Below are positions 5,021 to 59,568 of a stretch of DNA of 64,000 bases, in pieces (position 1 is the stretch's first letter; the number at the start of each line of letters is the position of its first letter). The DNA is from an uncultured bacterium (lineage in GTDB: Bacteria > Patescibacteriota > Minisyncoccia > Moranbacterales > UBA2206), in contig CAIZXS010000023.1 of NCBI GenBank assembly GCA_903937035.1, forward strand, positions 1,188-65,187, in the 5' to 3' direction. Position numbers and translations under genes: made by a program. The notes under the pieces are model-generated. The model ran no database searches. It worked only from the letters and a program-made list of their open reading frames with translations, and was not told where the DNA came from.

Positions 5021-5293
5021 TTATACTTCAATATCTGTTATCTTCCAGCTATCCCCCGCTACTTTTTTAATTACAAAGGCCACATTCTCAAATTCCGTAT
5101 TTTTTGCAATACTTGCAAGACCAAACTGCAAATTTTCAACACTAATATCTTCTGTGTGTTCCGGATGACCATCATGCGCCAAACTAATCAAACCAATTTC
5201 AAGATTAACTTTCTTTATTTTCGTCAATGACTTTTCCTTGGCTATCGCGCCAAGCTCATCAATTACTTCTTTTGCCAATATGAAATCATGCAT
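5021..5293 (-). CDS. HypA-like hydrogenase nickel-insertion protein N-terminal domain, lacking the C-terminal CxxC...CxxC zinc finger
   Basis: From the MHD start it aligns with the HypA N-terminus (MHE...L...L...A...KV..V.L.IG). There is no Cys in the C-terminal half. Confidence 0.4.
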   Translation of the reverse strand: MHDFILAKEVIDELGAIAKEKSLTKIKKVNLEIGLISLAHDGHPEHTEDISVENLQFGLASIAKNTEFENVAFVIKKVAGDSWKITDIEV

Positions 5294-5318
5294 ACCGATT
5301 CTTACTTTAACAATTAAC

Positions 5319-5693
5319 CTAGCTGACCCAAAGACCATGAACATTGCAATAAGCCCTCGCTGCAAGGTGCTCTGCCTCCAAGAAAAACTCCACCTGAGGC
5401 TCTGATCCCGGCTCTAGATATTTGCGATATACCCGATGTTCCGTAACAACCTCAATCCATTCAATATAATGTTCACTCTCCATTGGATGAGTAATCTCTC
5501 CGACACGTACAATCACGCCAGTATCATTTCTTTCAATCGTTGGCTTATGTTTCTCCACTCCCTCGTCTTCTGTTTTGGCAAATTGCTGCTCCATCGGGGC
5601 CCCACAGCAAACCAACTCCCCCGCGCCCCCATGTGTCATTTCAACTATGTTCCCACAAATGTTACACTTGTAGATTTGATTTAGTTCAGTCAT
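5319..5693 (-). CDS. dfx: Desulfoferrodoxin (2Fe superoxide reductase)
   Basis: Desulforedoxin-like N-terminus YKCNICGNIVEMTHGGAGELVCCGAPM. SOR domain with EKHKPTIE, HPMESEHYIEWIE and AYCNVHGLW. Start set at MTELNQ. Confidence 0.9.
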   Translation of the reverse strand: MTELNQIYKCNICGNIVEMTHGGAGELVCCGAPMEQQFAKTEDEGVEKHKPTIERNDTGVIVRVGEITHPMESEHYIEWIEVVTEHRVYRKYLEPGSEPQVEFFLEAEHLAARAYCNVHGLWVS

Positions 5694-5824
5694 AGTTATG
5701 TAGCATGAAACATGTAGCATGTAACAATTGAATGCTTCAAGCTTCGTGCGTGTTAAATAATTTTTAATCTTGTCCATCTCCCCCTTGCTCTCTCTGTTTT
5801 ATGTTTCATGTTTCATGTTTCATG
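5691..5824 (-). promoter_or_regulatory. Bipartite CATG-heptad element upstream of dfx. The proximal part reads AATTGTTACATGCTACATGTTTCATGCTACATAACT+ATG; the distal part is (CATGAAA)x3, 67 nt further upstream
   Basis: Direct read of the sequence. The distal array is the reverse complement of a (TTTCATG)n array, so it is inverted relative to the proximal YTWCATG heptads. Confidence 0.55.
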
Positions 5825-5825
5825 A

Positions 5826-7085
5826 CTAATGCACCGCGCAAGAAATGCACGGATCATAGGCACGAATGAACGCGCGCAACTTTTTTTCTTTTTCCTTATC
5901 TTTTAATTTCAAGATTTGAGGAATATATGCGGCGATATCATCTTCCAGATTAGACAAGAACTGAGCGGTTGGAGTAATGATGTTCACGTTTTTAACATAA
6001 CCCTTGGCGTCAACATCGACGTGATAATAGAGTGTTCCGCGTGGCGCTTCCACTGCTGCCGAACCCTCACCTTCTTTAATGGTATATTCTTTTGTCACGA
6101 CTTCTTCCAAATCACTGCTTAACAGCTCCAACATAATTCTTCTTGATTCTTCAATCGAATGAATGACTTCTACCATCTGCGCTAGAATATTATGGAAAGG
6201 ATTATAATCGGGGAAGTTCCATCCCAGACTTTTCAGATATTCTGAGGCCTTCAATCTTAACTTAACTCTATTATTGTTTATTCGCGCAATCGCTCCTATC
6301 ATATAGCTCTTTCCATTGTGCTCCACTCTTTTAATTATCTCGTTCTGTTTTTGCAGTTCCAAAAAGTTAGCTTCAAATTTTTCCACTGGGATATGCAAAC
6401 CAAAATTGGAAATTATATCCCCATCATAAATCGCATATTCTCCTCTCTTGTCCAGTGAAACATATTCAGTCTCTCGCGAAAAATCTGGTATTTTGATGCC
6501 GCGAAAAAATTCCCCTAGCTCCAATGCTATTTGCAAAACATCCTCTGAATTTTTAAGTATTCCTTTTAATAATTCCCTGTCTGGAGCCTTCTTAAACCCA
6601 CCCACCTCATTGGTCAGCGGATGCACAACCCTCCCACCAACCACCCTCACTATCTCCATTCCGAATTCACGAAGTTTGATTGCTTTCTTCGCCTCTTCAG
6701 GGTATTTACTCACGAGCTCAATGTCATTATCCATATCCAAGAAATCAGCTAGAGACAGAAAAAAGAGATGCAGTGAATGAGAATGAATGAACTGCGCATA
6801 TTCCATAAGTGTTCGCAGCTTTTCCGTCTCATATGTTACAGTTACGCCCATGGCATTTTCTAGAGCCTTAATCGAAGTAAGATTGTGTACGACAGGACAA
6901 ATCCCACAAATACGTTGAGCAACAAGAGGCATGTCCTTATACTCCCGCCCAACGAGAACGCCTTCAATAAGACGAATTCCCTCTTGCACCTGCAACTTGG
7001 CCGATTTAACATCACCCTTTATCACGCTTGCCATAAAGCCAGCATGACCTTCCATTTTTGCGATATGATTTATTTTGATATTCAT
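5826..7085 (-). CDS. [NiFe] hydrogenase large (catalytic) subunit, cytoplasmic group 3 type
   Basis: N-terminal RICGICPVVH. The C-terminus has DPCISCAVH, and the protein ends at that His with no C-terminal extension. Confidence 0.9.
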   Translation of the reverse strand: MNIKINHIAKMEGHAGFMASVIKGDVKSAKLQVQEGIRLIEGVLVGREYKDMPLVAQRICGICPVVHNLTSIKALENAMGVTVTYETEKLRTLMEYAQFIHSHSLHLFFLSLADFLDMDNDIELVSKYPEEAKKAIKLREFGMEIVRVVGGRVVHPLTNEVGGFKKAPDRELLKGILKNSEDVLQIALELGEFFRGIKIPDFSRETEYVSLDKRGEYAIYDGDIISNFGLHIPVEKFEANFLELQKQNEIIKRVEHNGKSYMIGAIARINNNRVKLRLKASEYLKSLGWNFPDYNPFHNILAQMVEVIHSIEESRRIMLELLSSDLEEVVTKEYTIKEGEGSAAVEAPRGTLYYHVDVDAKGYVKNVNIITPTAQFLSNLEDDIAAYIPQILKLKDKEKEKKLRAFIRAYDPCISCAVH

Positions 7086-7129: not shown

Positions 7130-8068
7130 CTATTTAAAGTTGCAAGTAACCTTTAGCGCATTCAGATCTTCCATCGAAAGCTGCGGATTTTCCATATTTT
7201 GATCAGAGAGCAAATAATACATAATTGATTTAGGATCATCAACATGTCCAATCCCCAATGCATGACCTAATTCATGCACGATCGTTAGTCGCAGATCAGC
7301 AGTTTGTTTAAATTGATAGATATTGATTTCTATCCCGTCATAGAGTCCCTTTTCAAACTCTCGTCCGCCACCATATTTAATCTTATATGTTGATACACTT
7401 GCATTATACTCATTTACAACGCTTTTTTCCTTCGAAACCAGAGCATTTGTCTTTCCAGCCAAACTATTCACCTCCATTCGCTCTTTCTCAAGTTTATCAT
7501 GCAAGTCTCCTAGTGCATTTTTATCCGATTTCAAATCATCATATTTATCATCAGATATTCCGCCATGCTTGTTCCAATAATCCACTTCGTCATTATATTT
7601 TTTCAATTTTTTTTCATATTCTGTAACATTTTGGTTGTATTTAGCGACTTTTTGCGCATATGTCCCACTGAGGTCTTCGTATTGGTTGGCAATTTTTTTG
7701 TGTGACGCCTCTAGCTGTTCAAGACTTTGAGACAGCTCGTCCGCCTCATTAGACGCAGATTGCCGTTCATCAAAAATCAAATTAATTTTAAACTGAGACT
7801 CAGGGTCATACTCAAATAGATTTCTCCCGGATTGTCGATCCCAAGTCTTTTCCGCATCTTTCGCTACAAGCAAGAGATCATCAGTGCTCAAATTAAATCT
7901 CGGGTCAACTGTACCGATGGTATATCTAAATGGCTTAAGGCAAGACAAATTTATTCCAGTAACCTTCTGGATTTTTTCTTCTACTACCAGCTTATTTTGA
8001 GAATACACTCTCCAAAAAGAAAAAGCGATAATAGCGATAATAGCGAAATAATAAAAAAATTTCTTCAT
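7130..8068 (-). CDS. Membrane-anchored metzincin-type zinc metalloprotease with an internal ~130-aa coiled-coil insertion
   Basis: Motif HELGHALGIGH (HExxHxxGxxH) followed by a Met-turn SIMYY. N-terminal TM helix FFYYFAIIAIIAFSFW. K/E-rich heptad-like segment in the middle. Start chosen at MKKFF, which has an upstream GAGAGGA. Confidence 0.6.
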   Translation of the reverse strand: MKKFFYYFAIIAIIAFSFWRVYSQNKLVVEEKIQKVTGINLSCLKPFRYTIGTVDPRFNLSTDDLLLVAKDAEKTWDRQSGRNLFEYDPESQFKINLIFDERQSASNEADELSQSLEQLEASHKKIANQYEDLSGTYAQKVAKYNQNVTEYEKKLKKYNDEVDYWNKHGGISDDKYDDLKSDKNALGDLHDKLEKERMEVNSLAGKTNALVSKEKSVVNEYNASVSTYKIKYGGGREFEKGLYDGIEINIYQFKQTADLRLTIVHELGHALGIGHVDDPKSIMYYLLSDQNMENPQLSMEDLNALKVTCNFK

Positions 8069-8177
8069 TATTGTCCTCTCGACGGACTGTCCGCCCGTGA
8101 GTTTTTTATCCCACTTTTTAAAAATAATTGGCACAAATCTAAAATTATGCACCATAGCGGACTGTCCGCTTTTAATT

Positions 8178-9134
8178 TTATCTTTTTGCTAGCTTATCCT
8201 TCCTTTCTCTCTCTTCTAAATCATCCCTGAGTCCAAAAATTTCAGTCATGTTCTGGAACTGTTCATCACTCATCATGCTTTTTAGCATCATGCGCATCGC
8301 ACTAACATTCCCCGTTGCTCGAAGCCCGCGACAACCCTGGCATTGCGCACGCGAACTTGGACAAGTTGCGTTGCATCCGCCCAAAATCATCGGCCCAAAA
8401 CATGGCTTCTTATCCAGAAGCAAACAACGATTGCCCGCTTTTTTGCATTCCACACAAACTGGCTGATCGGGAATAAGCGGGACATTGCCTTTGAGCAGTT
8501 CTGGGATATATTGCAAAAATTCTTCCCCATTGATGGGACAGCCTGGAAAAACAAAATCCACTTTCACAAAATTATCCAACTCTCGAATCGCTGGATTATT
8601 AATTCCTTGCAAATATTTATAAACATGTTTTATCGTGCTCACACCTTCGTGATAATTTTTCATTTCCGGAATTCCGCCCATCGCCGCGCAGTTTCCAAGA
8701 GCTACGAGTATCTTTGCTCTTTTTCTTGCTTCAAGTAGCGTTTTCTCATTTTCTTTCGTCACAGGATTTCCCTCAATGAGAACCAAGTCTAACATTCCGC
8801 CATCATCCTCCCAGTCTTCAATCAGCCGGAAATCAACCAGCTCAATTATTTCTGTTAGTGCCAAAAAGCGCGTACCAAGATCAAGCAGGACAAACTGGCA
8901 ACCCTCACAAGAAGTCAGACTAATAATCGCTACACGTGGTTTTCCGCTGGCTTTTTTTTCTACCACTTTTGTTTTCGCTCCTGATACTGCTGTTTTCTTT
9001 ATCACCTTAGTCTTGACCACTGCCACTTTTTTTATTGCTTTCGCTTTATCTGTCACTGCCTTTTTCGGTTTAGCTTTTTTTGTTTCTGGTTTATTTTTAA
9101 TTACCATTGTTTTAGAAATATAATTTAACTTCAC
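8178..9134 (-). CDS. [NiFe] hydrogenase small subunit (NuoB/Oxidored_q6 fold) with a ~65-aa Lys/Ala/Val-rich N-terminal tail
   Basis: SLTSCEGCQ, ALGNCAAMGGIP, GCPINGEE, plus distal Cys clusters. The tail reads KKAKPKKAVTDKAKAIKKVAVVKTKVIKK. Confidence 0.85.
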   Translation of the reverse strand: MKLNYISKTMVIKNKPETKKAKPKKAVTDKAKAIKKVAVVKTKVIKKTAVSGAKTKVVEKKASGKPRVAIISLTSCEGCQFVLLDLGTRFLALTEIIELVDFRLIEDWEDDGGMLDLVLIEGNPVTKENEKTLLEARKRAKILVALGNCAAMGGIPEMKNYHEGVSTIKHVYKYLQGINNPAIRELDNFVKVDFVFPGCPINGEEFLQYIPELLKGNVPLIPDQPVCVECKKAGNRCLLLDKKPCFGPMILGGCNATCPSSRAQCQGCRGLRATGNVSAMRMMLKSMMSDEQFQNMTEIFGLRDDLEERERKDKLAKR

Positions 9135-9209
9135 AGCTCTATTCTAGCACATAACAACCATAAATTAAATAAGGGCCGATCATTTGATCTGCCCTTATCG
9201 AAAAACGAC

Positions 9210-9896
9210 TCATTTCTTAACGAAGTGGAGTGGAGAAAGAATTTTTCTGCAATCAACAACACCTCTCCTTGCACATGCTCCATAAATAAGTGAGCTAACT
9301 GCCTGCTCTTCTAGAACAGGCCCATAGATTCTTTTCTCACATGAACTGATTATATAGCCATAGCGAGTAAAAAACATAGGTCCTGCTTCAAGAATATCGG
9401 CATTACCGCAAAGAAGTTGGAGATGCGTAAAGATAACCTCCGCTCCGTTATTGAAATATAAGCCAGAATACCCTTCACCTTTTTTCTCTTTTTTAATTTT
9501 TATCGGCAGAAGCAACCTGAAAAGAAGGAGCGCCATAGCAGCACCATTAACGAAACCCTTCTCTCGAAGATCTGCCTTCACGTACTCAGCGCATTCATCG
9601 CCGCCAAAGAAAAGCGCCACCGTTACACCATCAATATTGGCTTTTCCTAAGTTTTTAGTAAACGCCGCAACTCGATCTTTCACCCCCGCTTCCAATGGGA
9701 AGATTTCTGCAAAGCGCTCTAATGAAAGCATCTTTGGTGCTACAATTAACTCTGCTTGTAGAAGATCGCATTTTTGATTCTTCTTTTCTTTGCGAGCCAT
9801 TTCAACAGCCGCAAAAAGTGCCACACCATTTGGAGTAATTTTCATAGCTTCTCCCTTCGATATAATTTTAAAGGCTTTTTGGCCTATTTCTATCAA
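9210..9896 (-). CDS. Hypothetical protein between hypF-like and the hydrogenase small subunit gene
   Basis: 228-aa ORF with no motif I can assign. Its position suggests a hydrogenase-associated role. Confidence 0.3.
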   Translation of the reverse strand: MIEIGQKAFKIISKGEAMKITPNGVALFAAVEMARKEKKNQKCDLLQAELIVAPKMLSLERFAEIFPLEAGVKDRVAAFTKNLGKANIDGVTVALFFGGDECAEYVKADLREKGFVNGAAMALLLFRLLLPIKIKKEKKGEGYSGLYFNNGAEVIFTHLQLLCGNADILEAGPMFFTRYGYIISSCEKRIYGPVLEEQAVSSLIYGACARRGVVDCRKILSPLHFVKK

Positions 9897-9976
9897 TTTC
9901 GTAAAGTACCCGATATTGCCATATTAAGCAATGTCCAATAATTACCTATCCTGCGACATTTATCGCCATCTGTCAA

Positions 9977-11314
9977 GTGCAACAAAAAAAATCCTCCATG
10001 CTATACTATTCTCATCATATGAACACCCACCCCTTCCCCCAAAAAACCAAGCAGACTATCCTCGCCCTCGGCGCCGAATCCGAAGGAAATTTCTGTTTTT
10101 TTGCACAAAACAAAATTTATTTTTCGGAGAATTTTGGTGATCTCTTGAAAGAAAAAAACTGGCAAAAATATCAAGCGGCGGTTTTGGAATTTTTGAAAAA
10201 AAATAAATTCAAACCGGACCTACTTCTCACCGACCTACATCCTCTCTATTTGACTTCGGTTTGGGGCAAAGCTCTAGGTAAAAAATACAAAGTTAAGCAT
10301 ATTCAAGTTCAACACCACCTAGCGCACCTTTTCTCAACTATCGGCGAAAAAATCATATTAGATACTAAATACCAGATACCAGATACCATTTACGGGATTG
10401 CTATGGATGGAACGGGCTATGGAACTGATGAAAAAATTTGGGGAGGAGAAGTGTTTAAAATCAAAAATCCCATGCCTACCGGCAGGCAGGAAAAATCAAA
10501 AATAAAAATTATCGAACGAATCGGCCATCTTGAAAATCAAGTCTTGATCGGTGGAGATTTAGCAATAAGAGAACCGGCGCGAATGTTGATTAGCATTTTG
10601 GATAAGGTATTGTTACCCCCTCCTTACCAAGGAGAGGGGTTGGGGGTGAGGTTAAAGAGCAATACACAAAGAAAAAATACTACTTACCGCTTCGTAAAAA
10701 ACTACTACACCAAAAACGAATTTGAGTTAATTTACGCCCAGCTCCAGCAAAATTTCAACTGCCTCGAAACTTCCAGCACCAGCCGAGTCCTAGATGCTGT
10801 TTCGCTACTTTTAGGTTTTTGTGAAAATGAGAGAAAATACAAGCACGAACCGATCGCTCCGCTAGAAACCAACTCCACAAGACCCTATGTGGATTTAAAA
10901 CCAAAAATTATACTTTCACAGGGCAAGCGAGTTTTAAACACGACTTTTTTGTTTGAATATTTAATTAAAAATTTGCATAAAGATAAGAAGCGCCTAGCTG
11001 CAACTGCACAACTCTATGTCGCTCGGGGATTATATGAACTCATAAAAAACAGTTGTCATCCTGAGCGAAGTCGAAGCCTGCCTGCCGGTAGGCAGGGATC
11101 TACCTGCAAATACCACCAGCGATATTCTACAGAAGATTCTTCGACTCCGCTGCGCTGCGCTCAGAATGACATTTTTATAGCCGGTGGCATCGCCAATAAC
11201 AAAATTATTTCTGTATATTTAATTTCCCAAGGTGCTTATGCAAGCAAAGAGATCCCCCGCGGCGACGCCGGGCTTTCTTTTGGACAGATTATTTGCTACT
11301 TACTTTCAAAGTAA
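9977..11314 (+). CDS. hypF: HypF-like carbamoyltransferase, Kae1/TsaD-like C-terminal domain only. It lacks the acylphosphatase, Zn-finger and YrdC domains and carries in-frame insertions
   Basis: VQHHLAHLFS (HypF HHxAH motif), ILALGAESEGNFCF, FIAGGIANN. Internal palindromic 16-mer at 10475-10490 and a MITE-like insert at 11055-11170. Confidence 0.6.
   Translation: MQQKKSSMLYYSHHMNTHPFPQKTKQTILALGAESEGNFCFFAQNKIYFSENFGDLLKEKNWQKYQAAVLEFLKKNKFKPDLLLTDLHPLYLTSVWGKALGKKYKVKHIQVQHHLAHLFSTIGEKIILDTKYQIPDTIYGIAMDGTGYGTDEKIWGGEVFKIKNPMPTGRQEKSKIKIIERIGHLENQVLIGGDLAIREPARMLISILDKVLLPPPYQGEGLGVRLKSNTQRKNTTYRFVKNYYTKNEFELIYAQLQQNFNCLETSSTSRVLDAVSLLLGFCENERKYKHEPIAPLETNSTRPYVDLKPKIILSQGKRVLNTTFLFEYLIKNLHKDKKRLAATAQLYVARGLYELIKNSCHPERSRSLPAGRQGSTCKYHQRYSTEDSSTPLRCAQNDIFIAGGIANNKIISVYLISQGAYASKEIPRGDAGLSFGQIICYLLSK
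10475..10490. repeat. Palindromic 16-mer CCTACCGGCAGGCAGG; reverse complement of the 16-mer at 11077-11092
   Basis: Exact inverted match ~600 nt apart inside the hypF-like ORF. A related hairpin, CTGCCGACAGGCAG, lies at 55633-55646. Confidence 0.6.
11055..11170. mobile_element. MITE-like element with terminal inverted repeats GTCATCCTGAGCGAAGTCGAAG / CTTCGACTCCGC..CTCAGAATGAC, inserted in frame within the hypF-like CDS
   Basis: The ends match the intergenic copy at 52587-52714 and the centre differs. It contains the hairpin CCTGCCTGCCGGTAGGCAGG. The host ORF stays open, with encoded insert ...HPERSRSLPAGRQGSTCKYHQRYSTEDSSTPLRCAQNDIF... Confidence 0.65.
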
Positions 11315-11320
11315 CTTATG

Positions 11321-12364
11321 TCAGCATATCCGCGGAATCAACTTTCCTTTTGGCACTTCAATTTTTTTCTCACTACCAAGCTTAGTCTTGAGCCATACAC
11401 CATTGCCTTTTGAAACTACCCCCGTAATCTTAGCCTCACGATTAAATTTCCTAAGAATTTCAATTACTTTGTTGCTGTCTTTTTTTGCAACCGTTGCCAC
11501 AAATCTGCCCTCGGACGGAAAAGAAAACTTATCAATGCCCAAAAGCCCAGAAAGCGCCACGGTTTCCTTGGCAAAAGGTAAATTATTTTCTTCAAGTACG
11601 AATCTCATTTTAGATTTTTCCGCCATTTCGTTGAGCACCGCCGCCACTCCACCACGCGTCGGATCTTTGCAAGAAGTGAGATAGGGTAAGATACTTTGAA
11701 TTTCGGCTGTTACGGGCTGGCAATCACTTTTTATTTTTGTCCGATAATTAAAACGACTAGCCAAAAGCGCCACGGCGTGTTCGCCCAGATTGCCGGAAGC
11801 AATGATCACATCGCCCACTTTTGCTCCGCCATTTTCAATAACCTTCTTAGCGAGCCCCACGCCAGAAGTCGTAATTTCAATCTTGTCAATTTTGCCTTTT
11901 TCGGTCACCTTAGTGTCCCCCGTCACAATCGGCACACCGGTCTCCTTGGAAATTTTTCCAATTGACTGCATTATTTTTTTCAAATCTTCCAGGGGAAAAC
12001 CTTCCTCAATCACAACACTGAGTGATATTCCAATCGGCAGCGCGCCCATCACCGAGAGATCATTAATCGTCCCGCAAATGGCGATTTTCCCAATGTCTCC
12101 GCCCGGAAAAAAAATTGGATCCACAATAAACGCATCAGTTGTGAAGACTAATTTTTCCTTTCCCAGATCATATACAGCCCCATCATCTTTGGTATTTTCC
12201 CATTTTTTTGACACAAGGAAAAACTTCCTAATCTCAGAGATAAGCTTTGATGACTTTTCGCCTCCGCCACCATCTTCCAATTCAATAAATTTCTTTTTAA
12301 ATTTTAAATTGTCATTTTCCATTTTGAGATTTACATTTTCAATTATTATATCGATACTCCACAT
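11321..12364 (-). CDS. hypE: Hydrogenase maturation factor HypE
   Basis: GGDIGKIAICGTINDLSVMGA; C-terminal PRIC. Start chosen at MWSID, which has an upstream GGAGGGGAG. Confidence 0.9.
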   Translation of the reverse strand: MWSIDIIIENVNLKMENDNLKFKKKFIELEDGGGGEKSSKLISEIRKFFLVSKKWENTKDDGAVYDLGKEKLVFTTDAFIVDPIFFPGGDIGKIAICGTINDLSVMGALPIGISLSVVIEEGFPLEDLKKIMQSIGKISKETGVPIVTGDTKVTEKGKIDKIEITTSGVGLAKKVIENGGAKVGDVIIASGNLGEHAVALLASRFNYRTKIKSDCQPVTAEIQSILPYLTSCKDPTRGGVAAVLNEMAEKSKMRFVLEENNLPFAKETVALSGLLGIDKFSFPSEGRFVATVAKKDSNKVIEILRKFNREAKITGVVSKGNGVWLKTKLGSEKKIEVPKGKLIPRIC

Positions 12365-13379
12365 TACAACTCCCCTCCACCGAAACCATGCAAGCCCCCT
12401 GTGGGCTATTCGGCGTGCAAACTTTCCTAAACAGTAAACAATCTTTTGGCTCAAGAAGTCCTTGCAAAACCAATCCGCACCTGCAAGCACTTGTTTTTGG
12501 CCTTATTTCTTTTTTTATTTTTTCGATCAATTTCCCATGCACAAATTCCGCATCTTGTGCCTGATATTTTTTTCGAATTTTTAGTCCAGAATTCTTGATT
12601 TCTCCAAGGCCTCGCCACTTCGCATCACTAACTTCAAAAACTTCGTTGATTAACTTTAGCGCTTTTTTATTTCCTCCCTTTTTCACTAGCCTACCGTAAG
12701 CATTTTCCACACGAGACTTGTTTTCCAAGATCTGTGTAAGCAGCACATTGATTGCAACTAAAACATCTTCACCAGAAAAACCAGCCACGACCTGAGGGAT
12801 ATTGAATTTTTGATAGACTTCTGTGCCAATTATGGCACTCACATGCCCCGGATCGATAAAACCGTCGACTCGGATTTTTTTGTTTTCAAGAAGTGCTTGC
12901 ATCGCCGGAGGAAAGAGTTTATGGGCACTATAAACCGTGAGCCCTTCTTTTATTGCCCAGGCCGTCATTCCCGTCGTCGTTTCAAAACCAAGCCCAAAAA
13001 AAACTAAACCCAGCCCTTCTCTTTGTAACTCAACCGCCTCAGTAATTGAATAAACGATCCGTACATCTGCGCCGCTCCTTCGCGCTTCCTCAAGACTCAT
13101 CGTGCTCCCCGGAACTTGCATCGTATCGCCATAAACAGCAATTGGAATTCCTGTCAGTGCAAGACCAACAACAATATCAATGTCTGATTGATCCGTTACA
13201 CAAACCGGACAACCTGGCCCGGAAACAAGGGTAATGTTTTTCGGCATCAGTTTTTTAATTCCATGTTCCGCGATCGTCTGCGCGTGTGTCCCACAGAGCT
13301 CCATGAACCGCAAAGGTCGACCGATCTGGGTCGCCTTTTTTTGAATATCATCTATGACTTTGTCCGTGGTAGGTTGCAT
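12339..13379 (-). CDS. hypD: Hydrogenase maturation factor HypD
   Basis: MELCGTHAQ, GPGCPVC, FETT, C-terminal Cys cluster. Confidence 0.95.
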   Translation of the reverse strand: MQPTTDKVIDDIQKKATQIGRPLRFMELCGTHAQTIAEHGIKKLMPKNITLVSGPGCPVCVTDQSDIDIVVGLALTGIPIAVYGDTMQVPGSTMSLEEARRSGADVRIVYSITEAVELQREGLGLVFFGLGFETTTGMTAWAIKEGLTVYSAHKLFPPAMQALLENKKIRVDGFIDPGHVSAIIGTEVYQKFNIPQVVAGFSGEDVLVAINVLLTQILENKSRVENAYGRLVKKGGNKKALKLINEVFEVSDAKWRGLGEIKNSGLKIRKKYQAQDAEFVHGKLIEKIKKEIRPKTSACRCGLVLQGLLEPKDCLLFRKVCTPNSPQGACMVSVEGSCNVEYRYNN

Positions 13380-13380
13380 A

Positions 13381-13584
13381 TTACTTTTTCCCCAAATACC
13401 CCATCATCTCTTTTGCATATTCATCATCCATTTTTTCAATCGCAAAACCAGCATGCACCATAACGTATTCACCAATCTTAGCATCCACTAATGAAATATT
13501 GATTTCTTTTTCAATACCATTAAAATCAACTGTCGCCAGTTGATTTTTAATTGCCATAATTTTTCCTGGAATCGCGAGACACAT
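13381..13584 (-). CDS. hypC: Hydrogenase maturation factor HypC
   Basis: MCLAIPGKI N-terminus, 67 aa. Confidence 0.9.
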   Translation of the reverse strand: MCLAIPGKIMAIKNQLATVDFNGIEKEINISLVDAKIGEYVMVHAGFAIEKMDDEYAKEMMGYLGKK

Positions 13585-13593
13585 AGGCCTTAT

Positions 13594-14634
13594 CTAAGCT
13601 TTAATTTTCATTTTCCCCGCTACAATATTTCCTCTATCTCTCACCAACCTCACCACTTCTCGCTCCGATAGGACATAGTCCAAATATTCATTCTTGCGAA
13701 CTTTTTTATAAATTTTAGAAGAAATAAAAAACGTGCAAATATTTTTTGGATCAATTTTTTCTTTTCGAGCATATTCAGTTCTGATATTTTTAATAATCTC
13801 GTCTTCCTCATTTCGCTCTTTTTCTTCTAATTTTATTATTTTTTCAAAACCTAAATCAAAAAATATTTTTTCAAAATTTTGCTCGTGAGAAATATTTTTC
13901 AACTGCTCACTTATTTTTCCGTCCATTTCTAAATCGATGACCGCCACAGAAAACTTTTTCAAATCATCCAAGTCTTTAATTATTTTTGAAAAATCGTTTT
14001 GATCAGTGAGTGCCGCCACAGGACACGCCTCAACACATTTTCCACAAAAACTACAATCCAGCACCTTTTCATATGGCGTCCCGACGACAACATCTCCTGC
14101 GCGATGATTGAAGCCAAATTTTTGCTCCGGACAGATATTAATACATCTTCGGCATTCCACACAAAACTCGGAATTCCTCGAAATACAAGGATTTTCATTT
14201 TCCACAACTACTCGCGACCAATTATCTCTGAGCAATTTTTGCTCTTCGGAACTAGTCATTTCGCCACGCCTGGGCACAAAATGGAAGTTTTCAATTCTAT
14301 ATTCCTCGGCTAATTTCTGCAAATCACACAATCTATTTTTCTTGCAAGTAGCGCACTTCCCCGCATGATCCGCCCATAAAAGCTCTAAGTTAATTCGACG
14401 CGCCTTGGAAATTTTTTCACTCTCAGTCACAAGATCCATATCCTTACAAACTTTTGTATTGCAAGACGTAATAAGACGCCCACTATTTTCCACCACGCAA
14501 ACGCGACACAAACCTTCATGCGAATATTTCGCACCGCAAAGCGTGGGAATTTTTATTCCCTCACGCATGCAAACTTGGAAAATAGTTTCCCCCACTTTCG
14601 CAGCATATTTTTTGTTATTGATTTTGATTTGCAT
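13594..14634 (-). CDS. HoxU/NuoG-like iron-sulfur subunit (N-terminal 2Fe-2S ferredoxin plus 4Fe-4S domains)
   Basis: CxxxxC..CxxC 2Fe-2S pattern near the N-terminus, several CxxCxxCxxxCP ferredoxin motifs, DHAGKCATCKKNRLCDLQ. Confidence 0.8.
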   Translation of the reverse strand: MQIKINNKKYAAKVGETIFQVCMREGIKIPTLCGAKYSHEGLCRVCVVENSGRLITSCNTKVCKDMDLVTESEKISKARRINLELLWADHAGKCATCKKNRLCDLQKLAEEYRIENFHFVPRRGEMTSSEEQKLLRDNWSRVVVENENPCISRNSEFCVECRRCINICPEQKFGFNHRAGDVVVGTPYEKVLDCSFCGKCVEACPVAALTDQNDFSKIIKDLDDLKKFSVAVIDLEMDGKISEQLKNISHEQNFEKIFFDLGFEKIIKLEEKERNEEDEIIKNIRTEYARKEKIDPKNICTFFISSKIYKKVRKNEYLDYVLSEREVVRLVRDRGNIVAGKMKIKA

Positions 14635-14637
14635 AAT

Positions 14638-15825
14638 TTATTTTAAAATTCCTAGTTTATCAATAGCATTTCGCACTGCCGTGGCAGCAAATTTTCCCAA
14701 TGGACAAAAAGTTGTATTCTCTAGTGTCCACAAAATATCATTTAGTGCTTCCTTGTCACGATCAGCTATCTCACCATCTACTAAGCGTTCGGCAATCTCA
14801 TGTAGGCGAAAAGTCCCCTCACGGCATGGCACACATTTTCCACATGATTCTCGCCTGAAAAATCCGGTCCAGGATAATAATAGATCATAAATATCAGCAG
14901 TCCTGTCCACTACCAAAATTGCGCCTGACCCTAGAATTGGCCCACCTAGCTCTTTTTCTAGATATATTCCTCCAGATGCACCACCAACTTGGGCGAACCA
15001 AAATTCCTTACCATCCTGCATTCCTCCTCCCAATTTAGTAATTGCCTCATCTATCGTAGTAGCGATTGGAGCCTCAAACACACCCATATTCTTAACAGAC
15101 CCACCAAGCACAAATAATTTTGTAGCGCACTTGAGATACTTTTTTCCGCCATTTTGGATAATCCAGGGAATGCTAGCAATCGTTTCAGCATTATTCACTA
15201 CCGTAGGTTTTCCAAAAAGTCCACATTCCGTTGGATAAGGTGGCCGCATTTTTGGCTCTCCGCGATTGCCTTCGATGGAACTCAAGAGTGCTGTTTCTTC
15301 TCCGCAGATATAGGCTCCGGCGCCAGAAAAAATTTCAATCTCTAGTGAATATTTTGAGCTCAATATTTTTGTCCCTAAAAATTTACGCTCTTGGGCCTGC
15401 AAAATTGCTCGCGCTAAAACTTCCTTTGCTTTTTCGTAATTTCCATTGAGATAGATATAACTTTTTTTTGCACCAATCGTGAGAGCAGAAAGAACTAACC
15501 CTTCCAAAAGTAAATGCGGGTTATTCTCTGCAATTAACCGATCCTTATACGTCCCCGGCTCTGATTCATCCAGATTACAAACAAAATATTTTTCACCTTT
15601 CTGCGCGGAGACCATTTCCCATTTCACTCCCGTTAAAAAGCCCGCCCCACCTCGCCCAGAAAGTCTCGATAATTTTACTTCTTTCAATGCGCCTTCTGAA
15701 TCTGATTTTTCAATGAATTCTTTGAGCGCCTCATAACCACCGACAGAAACATAGTCCTCTATCTTTAAAGGATTAATTTTGCCCCAATGTTCGGTGATAA
15801 TTTTTATATTATTCATATACTTCAA
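14638..15825 (-). CDS. HoxF/NuoF-like NAD(H)-binding flavoprotein subunit (51-kDa type)
   Basis: GRGGAGF, CNLDESEPGTYKDR, ESCGKCVPCREGT. Confidence 0.9.
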   Translation of the reverse strand: MKYMNNIKIITEHWGKINPLKIEDYVSVGGYEALKEFIEKSDSEGALKEVKLSRLSGRGGAGFLTGVKWEMVSAQKGEKYFVCNLDESEPGTYKDRLIAENNPHLLLEGLVLSALTIGAKKSYIYLNGNYEKAKEVLARAILQAQERKFLGTKILSSKYSLEIEIFSGAGAYICGEETALLSSIEGNRGEPKMRPPYPTECGLFGKPTVVNNAETIASIPWIIQNGGKKYLKCATKLFVLGGSVKNMGVFEAPIATTIDEAITKLGGGMQDGKEFWFAQVGGASGGIYLEKELGGPILGSGAILVVDRTADIYDLLLSWTGFFRRESCGKCVPCREGTFRLHEIAERLVDGEIADRDKEALNDILWTLENTTFCPLGKFAATAVRNAIDKLGILK

Positions 15826-16274
15826 ACATACTCGCCCAGAATTCGATGCACACTACTCACGGTTACTTTTTCAAAAACTTTCCCATTTACAATCATAATT
15901 GGCCCCTCAGCACATCGACCAAGACAGCTGTTTTTTTCCAAACGTACTTTTGGATTAAATTCATCACCAGCCTTAATTCGAAAATAATTTTCAATTTCTT
16001 GGATAATTTCAGCCGAGGAGCCTAAAGCACAATCCCCGCTAGAGCAAACCTTAATTTCCAAATTAGCTGGTTTTCTAGTTTTAATCAAATCATAAAAACT
16101 AGCTACTTCGCAAATTTTCGCTAGCGACAGCCCAAAATACTCCGCAACAATTTCCGCATCTTTGCTGCCAATAAACCCAAAAACAGCACTAATTTTTTTC
16201 AGCACTGGCAATAAATTTTGCACTTCCGGATCATATGAAACTAATATTTTTTCTACTGTCACATTGTTTTGCAT
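15822..16274 (-). CDS. HoxE/NuoE-like thioredoxin-fold 2Fe-2S subunit (24-kDa type)
   Basis: CSSGDCALGSS ... CLGRCAEGP. Confidence 0.85.
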   Translation of the reverse strand: MQNNVTVEKILVSYDPEVQNLLPVLKKISAVFGFIGSKDAEIVAEYFGLSLAKICEVASFYDLIKTRKPANLEIKVCSSGDCALGSSAEIIQEIENYFRIKAGDEFNPKVRLEKNSCLGRCAEGPIMIVNGKVFEKVTVSSVHRILGEYV

Positions 16275-52586: not shown

Positions 52587-52714
52587 GTCATCCTGAGCGA
52601 AGTCCGTACTCGGACACAGTCGAAGGATCTGCTAGCGGTAATCGTAGTTTTTACTATTTACCACAACACTAGCAATAATTGAAAGCAGATTCTTCGACTC
52701 CGCTCAGAATGACA
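52587..52714. mobile_element. MITE-like element, intergenic copy (terminal repeats GTCATCCTGAGCGAAGTC... / ...AGATTCTTCGACTCCGCTCAGAATGAC)
   Basis: Its ends match the copy at 11055-11170 and the centre differs (contains GTCCGTACTCGGAC hairpin). Located between rpmB and ndk. Confidence 0.65.
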
Positions 52715-59037: not shown

Positions 59038-59568
59038 ATGGAGCAACTAATTCTAGTCAACAAGCAAGATGAGCCAATTGGTTTCCAAGAAAAGCTGAAA
59101 GCACATCAATTGGGCCAACTACACAGAGCCTTTTCCATTTTTGTTTTCAACCAGAAAGGTCAATTATTGCTGCAAAAAAGAGCACGAAGCAAATATCATT
59201 GCGGAGGCCTATGGAGCAACACTTGCTGCGGACACCCAAGACCCAATGAAGAGTTGGAAAAAGCAGCTCATCGCAGACTCAAAGAAGAGTTAGTCTTTGA
59301 TTGTTCTCTCTGGAAAGCTTTCGAATTTATCTATAAAATCAAATTTGAAAATGAGCTTTGGGAAAATGAATATGTCCATGTCATCTTTGGCCAATACACA
59401 AAGTCACCAATACTCAATCCAGAAGAAGTTTCTGACTGGAAATGGATCGATCTATCAACTCTCAAAAGGGAAATTCGAGCCAACCCCAAAAAATTCACCT
59501 ACTGGCTAGAAAAGGAGTTATCCAATCCTGAATTCATGTCCCGCTTTAAGAAGATAAAATCGCACTAG
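59038..59568 (+). CDS. idi: Isopentenyl-diphosphate delta-isomerase type 1 (Nudix)
   Basis: HRAFSIFVFN...LLLQKRARSKYHCGGLWSNTCCGHP. Confidence 0.9.
   Translation: MEQLILVNKQDEPIGFQEKLKAHQLGQLHRAFSIFVFNQKGQLLLQKRARSKYHCGGLWSNTCCGHPRPNEELEKAAHRRLKEELVFDCSLWKAFEFIYKIKFENELWENEYVHVIFGQYTKSPILNPEEVSDWKWIDLSTLKREIRANPKKFTYWLEKELSNPEFMSRFKKIKSH

What the first reader, a model, noticed from the sequence alone, without database searches (positions are those of the whole stretch)
9977..11314. HypF reduced to its C-terminal Kae1-like carbamoyltransferase domain and transcribed divergently from hypCDE
Canonical HypF is ~750 aa, with acylphosphatase, two Zn fingers, a YrdC domain and a Kae1-like domain. 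Here only the Kae1-like domain with the HHLAH motif is present (445 aa), and it carries three insertions: the 16-mer palindrome, a G-rich stretch PPPYQGEGLGVRLKS, and the MITE. Either the missing N-terminal domains are encoded elsewhere, making a split HypF, or carbamoyl-phosphate processing is done differently, or the gene is decaying.
Basis: partly seen in the sequence, partly recalled or inferred. Interest (0 to 1): 0.55.

Follow-up and report, generated by a model that had tools for sequence, protein, structure and literature searches.

The report
Kae1-only HypF with in-frame repeat insertions
This is an intact, conserved hydrogenase-maturation gene of ultra-small (CPR/Patescibacteria) bacteria. 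It keeps only the last of HypF's four domains and tolerates three mobile-repeat insertions in surface loops, so it is a real but already precedented oddity, not a decaying gene.

Summary
The ORF is real. The likely CDS is 10019-11314 (431 aa); the GTG at 9977 gives 445 aa. It contains only the two Pfam sub-domains of the HypF Kae1-like carbamoyltransferase domain, with the QHHLAH, DGTG and GDAGxSFGQ motifs intact.

It is not TsaD/Kae1 or NodU, and it is not decaying. More than 1000 homologues were found, and in 80 species-level Patescibacteria genomes the gene is Kae1-only in the same place in the hydrogenase cluster. The window's gene falls in an all-short clade in 199 of 200 bootstraps.

The closest full-length HypFs (43-47% identity) occupy the same cluster position. 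This points to loss of the N-terminal ~380 residues in situ.

No acylphosphatase, Zn-finger or YrdC coding sequence was found in the 64-kb window or in about 1.2 Mb of flanking DNA from relatives.

All three insertions are real dispersed repeats. They lie in frame in hypervariable loops, which AlphaFold2 models as disordered.

The geometry needs correcting: the gene is convergent with hypE (6-nt gap), not divergent from hypCDE.

The same architecture is known from Cupriavidus necator HypF1.

Most likely the protein only transfers carbamoyl from carbamoyl-AMP to HypE. The source of carbamoyl-AMP is unresolved.

The parts
10019..11314 (+). hypF-C: stand-alone HypF Kae1-like carbamoyltransferase domain, 431 aa. 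The longest ORF starts at GTG 9977 (445 aa).
   Evidence: ORF. Pfam HypF_C + HypF_C_2 only. 100% identical to P0001, 431 aa. AlphaFold2 pLDDT 76; best PDB folds are HypF 3VTI/3VTH/4G9I, E about 1e-20.
10310..10327 (+). QHHLAH metal-binding motif (HxxxH of the Kae1-like site).
   Evidence: Invariant H99, H100 and H103 in alignment A1. Aligned to VQHHxAH of T. kodakarensis and C. subterraneus HypF.
10406..10423 (+). DGTGYG motif (Asp ligand / nucleotide loop).
   Evidence: D130-G133 are invariant in A1 and aligned to the PDB HypFs.
11261..11287 (+). GDAGLSFGQ C-terminal motif (second Asp ligand).
   Evidence: Invariant in A1. It served as a family-specific search pattern.
10471..10490 (.). Insertion 1: 20-nt near-palindrome CATGCCTACCGGCAGGCAGG, encoding MPTGRQ, in variable loop 1.
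   Evidence: One mismatch from the copy inside the MITE when read on the other strand; 0 expected by chance. Loop is 20 aa here against a family median of 13. pLDDT <50 at residues 153-158. The element occurs 12 times in 11 sources, 4 of them inside hypF-C.
10617..10651 (+). Insertion 2: G-rich hairpin repeat, encoding PPPYQGEGLGVR, in variable loop 2.
   Evidence: Loop is 5 aa in 47 of 82 family members and 24 aa here. pLDDT <50 at residues 203-212. Related copies occur in other loci outside hypF-C.
11054..11171 (+). Insertion 3: MITE with terminal inverted repeats, read through in frame (CHPERS...LRCAQND). The 20-nt palindrome is nested at 11077-11096.
   Evidence: The same MITE sits at the same loop in P0002, P0013, P0024 and P0028 and in further species. 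pLDDT <50 at residues 351-381. The palindrome block differs from the 95%-identical orthologue L005 by an in-frame 24-to-27-nt swap.
11321..12364 (-). hypE, the acceptor of the carbamoyl group. It ends in PRIC and is convergent with hypF-C.
   Evidence: Pfam AIRS/AIRS_C. Translation ends ...LIPRIC. Called gene of 347 aa. Downstream and on the opposite strand in 72 of 72 loci.
12339..13379 (-). hypD.
   Evidence: Pfam HypD, E 2.7e-122.
13381..13584 (-). hypC (starts MCLAIPGK).
   Evidence: Pfam HupF_HypC; translation.
13594..16274 (-). NuoG-like, NuoF-like and NuoE-like diaphorase subunits of the hydrogenase.
   Evidence: Pfam.
8178..9134 (-). [NiFe] hydrogenase small subunit.
   Evidence: Pfam Oxidored_q6.
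5826..7085 (-). [NiFe] hydrogenase large subunit with RICGICPVVH and a C-terminal DPCISCAVH, without an extension. This is the client that needs the Fe(CN)2CO cofactor.
   Evidence: Pfam NiFeSe_Hases; translation.
5021..5365 (-). HypA-like protein, just below the Pfam cut-off.
   Evidence: PF01155, 27.1 bits against a cut-off of 28.9. Conserved upstream in 43 loci.

Best explanation
hypF-C is a functional, lineage-wide minimal HypF of Patescibacteria (Moranbacteria/Parcubacteria group). It is a stand-alone Kae1-like S-carbamoyltransferase.

It arose when a full-length HypF, already sitting convergent to hypEDC in the hydrogenase cluster, lost its N-terminal ~380 residues (acylphosphatase, Zn fingers, YrdC-like domain).

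Inferred mechanism: it performs only the third HypF half-reaction. [quoted passage not shown] HypE then dehydrates it to thiocyanate for the Fe(CN)2CO cofactor.

Carbamoyl-AMP must therefore come from elsewhere. The most likely source is an unlinked YrdC-family adenylate-forming enzyme such as the housekeeping TsaC/Sua5. This would resemble t6A synthesis, where separate YrdC-type and Kae1-type enzymes pass a labile adenylate between them.

The three 'insertions' are dispersed palindromic/MITE repeats. They have landed, or been retained, in frame in surface loops that tolerate extra disordered peptide. This is comparable to Rickettsia palindromic elements.

Shown here: domain content, motif conservation, family size, synteny, the truncated clade, and the placement of the insertions in loops.
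Inferred: catalytic activity, the HypE substrate, and the source of carbamoyl-AMP.
For: Domain content and motifs.

HypF-type rather than TsaD-type: PDB sequence hits are to HypF only. Foldseek gives HypF E about 1e-20 against TsaD/Kae1 about 1e-7.

Family and synteny:
- More than 1000 homologues; the top 120 are all Kae1-only, 360-505 aa.
- 80 species-level genome loci; stop-to-stop ORFs are 347-518 aa.
- Neighbours are conserved: HypE, HypD/C, small and large subunits, HypA-like.

Truncation in situ:
- The closest full-length HypFs are P0144 (47% identity) and P0151 (43%). They carry all five Pfam domains and occupy the same position: divergent from hoxY-hoxH-hypA, convergent with hypEDC.
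- The other hyp/hox proteins of those loci are 42-47% identical to the window's.
- In an NJ tree the window sits in an all-short clade of at least 23 representatives in 199 of 200 bootstraps.

Purifying selection: dN/dS 0.28 against L005.

Clients are intact: HypE ends in PRIC, HypC starts MC, and the large subunit has both CxxC motifs.

Insertions in tolerant loops: AlphaFold2 low-confidence segments coincide with the three insertions, and loop lengths vary family-wide.

Precedent:
- C. necator HypF1 has the identical two-sub-domain architecture.
- TsaC/Sua5 and TsaD work as separate enzymes passing an unstable adenylate (PMC9654439).
- In-frame MITE/RPE insertions are documented (PMC10969869).
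Against: - No activity data exist for this family.
- The one studied Kae1-only HypF (HypF1) was inactive in E. coli hypF mutants and under anaerobic conditions (PMC5350229; PMC9100943), yet these CPR bacteria are presumably anaerobic fermenters.
- In canonical HypF, carbamate and carbamoyl-AMP are labile and are passed through an internal channel (PMC6022934). A free-diffusing intermediate is therefore not obviously efficient.
- TsaC/Sua5 is not known to make unsubstituted carbamoyl-AMP.
- No YrdC-family gene was found in the window or in any flank. Its presence elsewhere in these genomes is assumed, not shown.
Confidence: 0.6

Rival explanations
1. Split HypF. The acylphosphatase/Zn-finger/YrdC half survives as a dedicated separate gene elsewhere in the genome and works in trans with HypF-C, perhaps as a complex.
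For: In a sister lineage, HypF is called as two adjacent overlapping ORFs. In L095 the break lies exactly at the YrdC/Kae1 boundary, and the C-half starts with ATG six residues before the GxGAE motif. L094 is similar. A two-polypeptide HypF is therefore conceivable. Only one contig of about 68 kb of this genome could be examined.
Against: - There is no hit to E. coli HypF residues 1-385 or to TsaC in the window or in about 1.2 Mb of flanks from 80 species.
- There is no PF00708, PF07503 or PF01300 among the called genes of the whole window.
- No conserved unknown neighbour family was found.
- The search with the N-half of the closest full-length relative gave no Moranbacteria-labelled or free-standing N-half. 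All four N-half-only hits checked had the Kae1 half immediately downstream, and two of these lie in visibly frameshifted long-read assemblies.
Confidence: 0.15
2. Self-sufficient minimal HypF. The Kae1-like (ASKHA) domain alone binds ATP plus carbamate or carbamoyl phosphate, or uses carbamoyl phosphate directly, and carbamoylates HypE without any YrdC-type partner.
For: The family has been retained without any linked partner over deep divergence, down to about 40% identity. The nucleotide- and metal-binding motifs are invariant. The Kae1-like sites of solved HypFs bind nucleotides (descriptions of the PDB entries; PMC6022934).
Against: In every characterised member (HypF, TobZ, t6A system) adenylate formation is done by the YrdC-type domain (PMC9654439; PMC6022934). 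HypF1 is thought to need pre-formed carbamoyl adenylate. No new conserved motif suggesting an added activity was identified.
Confidence: 0.17
3. Decaying or non-functional remnant of hypF, riddled with repeat insertions. The hydrogenase is then inactive or matured by other means.
For: About half of the canonical protein is missing. Three mobile-repeat insertions lie in one gene. HypF1 is inactive in some assays.
Against: - The ORF is intact here and in 80 species.
- More than 100 columns are invariant, including the catalytic motifs.
- dN/dS is 0.28.
- Insertions occur only in variable loops and always in frame.
- hypCDE and both hydrogenase subunits are intact.
Confidence: 0.03
4. A repurposed Kae1-like enzyme. 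It may carbamoylate something other than HypE, or act mainly as a scaffold for HypE/HypCD.
For: The channel-forming domains are lost. The surface loops are hypervariable.
Against: Linkage to hypE is strict, tail to tail in 72 of 72 loci. The best sequence and fold matches are HypF, including the HypE-HypF complex 3VTI. HypE keeps its C-terminal PRIC.
Confidence: 0.05

Closest known systems
Cupriavidus necator (Ralstonia eutropha) H16 HypF1, pHG1 megaplasmid, 394 aa
   Same: The domain architecture is identical: only HypF_C + HypF_C_2. It is encoded inside a hyp operon next to hypC/D/E. The literature describes it as one of the three canonical domains and as probably needing pre-formed carbamoyl adenylate (PMC9100943).
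   Different: It is only 25% identical, no closer than full-length HypFs, and it branches far from the CPR clade in the NJ tree. The truncation is therefore independent. C. necator also has a full-length HypF2; no full-length copy was seen here. HypF1 is co-directional in its operon, whereas the CPR gene is convergent with hypE. HypF1 carries no repeat insertions.
Canonical HypF (E. coli b2712, 750 aa; T. kodakarensis 4G9I; C. subterraneus 3VTH/3VTI)
   Same: The Kae1-like domain is homologous, with the same HxxxH...D...D motifs. PDB sequence E-values run from 1.8e-31 to 3.5e-12 and Foldseek E is about 1e-20. It is linked to hypCDE and a [NiFe] hydrogenase.
   Different: It lacks the acylphosphatase, the two Zn fingers and the YrdC-like domain that E. 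coli HypF shows in the same scan. Two of the three active sites and the internal channel (PMC6022934) are therefore missing.
t6A pathway: TsaC/Sua5 (YrdC family) + TsaD/Kae1/Qri7
   Same: The logic is the same: a stand-alone Kae1-type transferase uses an acyl-adenylate made by a separate YrdC-type enzyme (PMC9654439). The fold is also the same, ASKHA/Kae1.
   Different: It is not a TsaD. There is no PF00814 hit, and the fold matches to TsaD are 13 orders of magnitude weaker than those to HypF. The substrate is a protein thiol, not tRNA A37.
Rickettsia palindromic elements (RPEs) and other in-frame MITEs (for example Coxiella QMITE)
   Same: Short palindromic mobile repeats are inserted in frame in housekeeping genes and are compatible with the protein fold (PMC10969869).
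   Different: The repeat families are different. Here several unrelated repeat families repeatedly occupy the same few loops of one protein family across many species.

Membership tests
HypF (carbamoyltransferase HypF, TIGR00143 equivalog) | N-terminal acylphosphatase domain (PF00708) | tested here: not met
   Absent from the protein and from every called gene of the window. Present in E. coli HypF in the same kind of scan.
HypF (carbamoyltransferase HypF, TIGR00143 equivalog) | Two HypF zinc-finger motifs (PF07503) | tested here: not met
HypF (carbamoyltransferase HypF, TIGR00143 equivalog) | YrdC-like domain (PF01300) that forms carbamoyl-AMP | tested here: not met
   No phmmer hit of E. coli HypF residues 1-385 or TsaC in the window or in 84 related loci.
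HypF (carbamoyltransferase HypF, TIGR00143 equivalog) | Kae1-like domain (PF17788 + PF22521) with HxxxH / D / D metal site | tested here: met
   Pfam E 2.7e-23 and 4.1e-37. Motifs are invariant. HypF is the best fold match.
HypF (carbamoyltransferase HypF, TIGR00143 equivalog) | Whole-protein score above the curated equivalog cut-off | tested here: not met
   197.4 bits against a cut-off of 466.1; only profile positions 387-686 are matched.
HypF (carbamoyltransferase HypF, TIGR00143 equivalog) | Genomic association with hypC/D/E and a [NiFe] hydrogenase; HypE with a C-terminal cysteine | tested here: met
HypF (carbamoyltransferase HypF, TIGR00143 equivalog) | ATP- and carbamoyl-phosphate-dependent carbamoylation of HypE | not testable with these tools
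   A biochemical assay is needed.
Truncated Kae1-only HypF (HypF1 type) | Only the Kae1-like domain, encoded within a hyp cluster | tested here: met
   Same two Pfam sub-domains as C. necator HypF1; hyp context.
Truncated Kae1-only HypF (HypF1 type) | Common descent with HypF1 | tested here: not met
   25% identity. HypF1 branches apart from the CPR clade. The closest relatives of the CPR clade are full-length HypFs.
Truncated Kae1-only HypF (HypF1 type) | Coexistence with a full-length HypF paralogue (as HypF2 in C. necator) | not testable with these tools
   Only one contig of about 68 kb of this genome is available. None was found in the window or the flanks.
TsaD/Kae1/Qri7 (t6A transferase) | PF00814 match and best structural similarity to TsaD/Kae1 | tested here: not met
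   No PF00814 hit at E <= 1. TsaD/Kae1 folds score E about 1e-7 against about 1e-20 for HypF.
NodU/CmcH/TobZ O-carbamoyltransferases | N-terminal Kae1-like domain (PF02543) plus C-terminal YrdC-like domain (PF16861) | tested here: not met
   Neither family is hit in the window protein. No C-terminal YrdC-like domain: the protein ends at the GDAGxSFGQ helix.
MITE / palindromic repeat inserted in frame (RPE-like) | Terminal inverted repeats, multiple dispersed copies, in-frame read-through in a host ORF | tested here: met
   Terminal inverted repeats and fold. Second copy in intergenic DNA. The palindrome and G-rich elements are dispersed in other loci. In frame in several species.
MITE / palindromic repeat inserted in frame (RPE-like) | Target-site duplication and evidence of transposition | tested here: inconclusive
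   No close relative with an empty site was available to define the junctions. The only recent change seen is the in-frame 24-to-27-nt block swap against L005.

The most novel reading that the evidence does not exclude
These ultra-small bacteria build the cyanide ligands of [NiFe] hydrogenase with a HypF that has only the transferase module and no dedicated partner. In that case, either the universal t6A enzyme TsaC/Sua5 doubles as the carbamoyl-AMP supplier, or the Kae1-like domain alone suffices. Either way this would define the minimal CN-ligand pathway and a natural cross-talk between tRNA modification and metallo-cofactor synthesis.
Probability: 0.3. Interest if true: 0.65.

Novelty: new member of a known kind. 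Interest (0 to 1): 0.4.

Why it matters
HypF is regarded as an obligatory four-domain enzyme that channels labile carbamate and carbamoyl-AMP. A large, old clade that retains only the last domain, while keeping intact hypCDE and hydrogenase genes, suggests that the first two half-reactions can be outsourced or bypassed. This matters for three reasons:
- It bears on minimal heterologous maturation systems for hydrogenases.
- It offers a possible context for the poorly understood HypF1 of C. necator.
- It affects metabolic annotation of CPR genomes, where such genes fail the curated HypF cut-off and are often labelled 'hypothetical'.

The loops, which repeatedly carry different in-frame palindromic repeats, also offer a clean natural example of RPE-like selfish DNA tolerated inside an enzyme, outside Rickettsia.

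Tried and rejected
1. The 211-aa ORF next door (9210-9845) as a hidden YrdC substitute.
- It has no Pfam hit even at E <= 10 and only 4 homologues.
- It is not conserved in other species. L003 has two unrelated 230-aa genes there.
- The AlphaFold2 model has pLDDT 49 and is unusable.
- It is rejected as a general partner. Its fold remains unknown.

2. phmmer of E. coli TsaC and of the HypF N-terminal half against all six-frame ORFs of the window plus 84 loci gave nothing.

3. Clustering all flank ORFs to find a conserved unknown neighbour turned up only known hyp, hox and glycolysis genes and antisense shadow ORFs.

4. A search with the N-half of the closest full-length HypF (P0144) returned many 'N-half only' proteins.
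- In all four I checked, the Kae1 half lies immediately downstream.
- Two of these are in long-read assemblies in which other genes are also fragmented.
- This gives no evidence for a free-standing N-half.

5. Intermediate-length hits of 440-614 aa in the representative search proved to be genes cut by the ends of 2.5-kb contigs.

6. An Rfam scan of 9000-12500 found nothing.

7. Promoter and terminator scans were no better than shuffled sequence.

8. The literature searches found no description of truncated HypF in CPR bacteria. The CPR hydrogenase paper read here does not discuss HypF architecture. This covers only the open-access library.

Full report
**Observation**

The window is AT-rich (about 40% GC) with nearly all genes on the minus strand. 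An uninterrupted plus-strand ORF runs 9977-11314. Alignment with homologues, and the identical database protein P0001 (431 aa), place the start at ATG 10019.

Pfam finds only the two sub-domains of the HypF Kae1-like domain: PF17788 at E 2.7e-23 and PF22521 at E 4.1e-37. NCBIfam TIGR00143 (hypF) aligns only to profile positions 387-686 of 741. Its score of 197 bits is far below the cut-off of 466. In the same kind of scan, E. coli HypF shows acylphosphatase, zf-HYPF, YrdC and both Kae1 sub-domains.

The QHHLAH (10310-10327), DGTGYG and GDAGLSFGQ motifs are present and invariant in the family.

**What surrounds it**

On the minus strand, in order of transcription, lie:
- NuoE-, NuoF- and NuoG-like diaphorase genes
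- hypC, hypD, hypE
- [hypF-C on the other strand]
- an orphan 211-aa ORF
- the hydrogenase small subunit
- an M10 peptidase
- the large subunit
- desulfoferrodoxin
- a HypA-like gene
- GAPDH

HypE ends in PRIC, HypC starts with MC, and the large subunit has both CxxC motifs. The clients of HypF therefore look functional.

hypF-C is tail to tail with hypE, with 6 nt between the stop codons. It is convergent with hypE, not divergent from hypCDE as the finding says. The same arrangement is seen in 72 of 72 related loci where HypE was found.

**It is a family, not an accident**

A search of 5.8 billion proteins gave more than 1000 hits. The best 120 are all Kae1-only proteins of 360-505 aa, named Moranbacteria, Kuenenbacteria, Terrybacteria, Parcubacteria or Patescibacteria where named at all.

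A scan of species-representative genomes returned 80 loci, nearly all Patescibacteria. In all of them:
- The stop-to-stop ORF is 347-518 aa.
- Alignments to E. coli HypF begin at residue 377 or later.
- Nothing in about 1.2 Mb of flanks matches HypF residues 1-385 or TsaC.

Synteny with hypE/D/C, both hydrogenase subunits and the HypA-like gene is conserved. No conserved unknown neighbour emerges. The whole 64-kb window, annotated through three look-ups, has no PF00708, PF07503 or PF01300 gene.

**Is it HypF-type?**

Yes. PDB sequence hits are exclusively HypF, with T. kodakarensis 4G9I best at E 1.8e-31. An AlphaFold2 model (pLDDT 76) matches HypF structures, including the HypE-HypF complex 3VTI, at E about 1e-20. 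TsaD/Kae1/Qri7 come at about 1e-7.

**Origin**

An exhaustive profile-free search of 1.84 billion representatives found 4413 relatives. The closest full-length HypFs, P0144 (47% identity) and P0151 (43%), have all five Pfam domains. They sit in the same cluster position:
- P0144 is divergent from hoxY-hoxH-hypA.
- P0151 is convergent with hypE-hypD-hypC.

Their neighbouring Hox and Hyp proteins are 42-47% identical to the window's. In a rough NJ tree of Kae1 domains, the window protein falls in a clade of at least 23 cluster representatives that are all short, in 199 of 200 bootstraps. The exact clade limits are not resolved.

The simplest reading is a single old loss of the N-terminal ~380 residues in situ, followed by long retention. 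In a sister lineage, HypF is called as two overlapping ORFs. In L095 the break is exactly at the YrdC/Kae1 boundary. This could be an intermediate or an assembly error.

**Not decaying**

- The ORF is intact in every species examined.
- More than 100 alignment columns are invariant.
- dN/dS against the 95%-identical orthologue is 0.28, based on about 32 substitutions.

**The three insertions**

(i) A 20-nt near-palindrome lies at 10471-10490 (MPTGRQ). The same element, read on the other strand, is nested in the MITE at 11077-11096. It occurs nowhere else in the window, but 12 times in 11 sources overall.

(ii) A G-rich hairpin element lies at 10617-10651 (PPPYQGEGLGVR).

(iii) A MITE with terminal inverted repeats lies at 11054-11171 (CHPERS...LRCAQND). 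Its DNA fold has z = -5, and a second copy sits in intergenic DNA near 52.6 kb.

Each insertion lies in a loop whose length varies across 82 family members:

| Loop | Window | Family |
|---|---|---|
| 1 | 20 aa | median 13 aa |
| 2 | 24 aa | 5 aa in 47 of 82 |
| 3 | 44 aa | median 15 aa |

Relatives carry other recognisable repeat-derived peptides at the same loops: CHPELVSGS..QVRHD, CHSGLDPESS..FHGND, SPFGRGC..GEG, FQFPISN and TRYQIP.

The only AlphaFold2 segments with pLDDT below 50 are residues 153-158, 203-212 and 351-381. These coincide with the three insertions.

The 95%-identical orthologue L005 has all three insertions. It differs by an in-frame 24-to-27-nt block swap that introduces the palindrome into the MITE. 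This behaviour resembles Rickettsia palindromic elements (PMC10969869).

**Mechanism**

Canonical HypF works in three steps:
1. It hydrolyses carbamoyl phosphate to carbamate (ACP domain).
2. It adenylates the carbamate (YrdC domain).
3. It transfers the carbamoyl group to the HypE cysteine (Kae1 domain).

The labile intermediates pass through an internal channel (PMC6022934; PMC9633730; PMC9654439).

HypF-C retains only the third site. I infer that it transfers carbamoyl from carbamoyl-AMP to HypE, and that the adenylate is made elsewhere. The t6A pathway shows that separate YrdC-type and Kae1-type enzymes can pass an unstable adenylate between them.

The only studied Kae1-only HypF is C. necator HypF1. 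It has the same two-sub-domain architecture but only 25% identity. It is likewise thought to need pre-formed carbamoyl adenylate, and it was inactive in E. coli hypF mutants and under anaerobic conditions.

Alternatives that remain open are a dedicated N-half gene elsewhere in the genome and a self-sufficient Kae1 domain. The last homologue search, using the N-half of P0144, found no free-standing N-half: the four N-half-only hits I checked all had the Kae1 half immediately downstream. Only the best 120 hits are visible, and the rest of this genome could not be searched.

**Verdict**

The thing itself is a new, large and independently truncated lineage of an architecture already known from HypF1. 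It is decorated with in-frame selfish repeats. It is moderately interesting. It would become more so if whole-genome censuses show that no HypF-type N-terminal half exists in these organisms.

Noticed in passing
window 7130-8155 (-): A matrixin-like M10 metallopeptidase gene with an N-terminal membrane anchor sits between the hydrogenase large- and small-subunit genes. This placement is conserved in at least 16 related species loci and in L003/L004. Its role is unknown. The large subunit has no C-terminal extension to cleave.
   Followed up: partly
window 5826-7085 (-) and the whole cluster: The large subunit ends right at DPCISCAVH, with no C-terminal extension. No maturation endopeptidase or HypB (cobW) gene lies in the window. 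The HypA-like gene (5021-5365) scores just below the Pfam cut-off. The maturation toolkit looks reduced.
   Followed up: partly
L003:11117-12536 (also L004:8969-10388): In a related Patescibacteria genome, a reverse transcriptase (RVT_1) plus a bAvd-like gene lie between hypF-C and hypE. This looks like a diversity-generating retroelement inserted there.
   Followed up: no
window 52598-52714 (-): A second copy of the MITE (same terminal inverted repeats, different interior) lies in intergenic DNA just upstream of a terminator-like hairpin.
   Followed up: partly
window 10473-10488 (- strand): On the minus strand, the loop-1 palindrome followed by a T-run scores as an intrinsic-terminator-like site. 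It lies inside hypF-C, in the path of any read-through from hypCDE towards hoxY. The scan as a whole was not enriched over shuffles.
   Followed up: no
window 9210-9845 (-): An orphan 211-aa ORF lies between the small subunit and hypF-C. It has no Pfam hit, only 4 homologues (59-100% identity) and a low-confidence AlphaFold2 model. Other species have unrelated genes at this position.
   Followed up: yes
L005-L084 (hypF-C genes of 80 species): Beyond the three loops of the window gene, at least three further loops of the family are length-hypervariable, reaching 69, 47 and 21 aa. They are filled with different repeat-derived peptides in different species. The enzyme family acts as a recurrent landing pad for in-frame palindromic repeats.
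   Followed up: partly
L095:219-2376 and L094:4043-6231: In relatives of the closest full-length HypF, the gene is called as two overlapping ORFs: ACP-Zn-YrdC, then Kae1. In L095 the break is exactly at the domain boundary, and the second ORF starts with ATG. This is either a genuine split HypF or a frameshift error.
   Followed up: partly
window 5319-5777 (-): A desulfoferrodoxin (superoxide reductase) gene is embedded in the hydrogenase cluster between the large subunit and the HypA-like gene. It is present in 18 related loci.
   Followed up: no
window 1-64000: Strand bias is extreme. GC skew is negative throughout and almost every gene is on the minus strand. hypF-C and a NUDIX gene (59038-59568) are the only called plus-strand genes.
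   Followed up: no
L059 and L066: Two different contigs of one MAG (SRP231805_co4_149) each carry a hypF-C gene. This could be a duplication, strain mixture or bin contamination.
   Followed up: no
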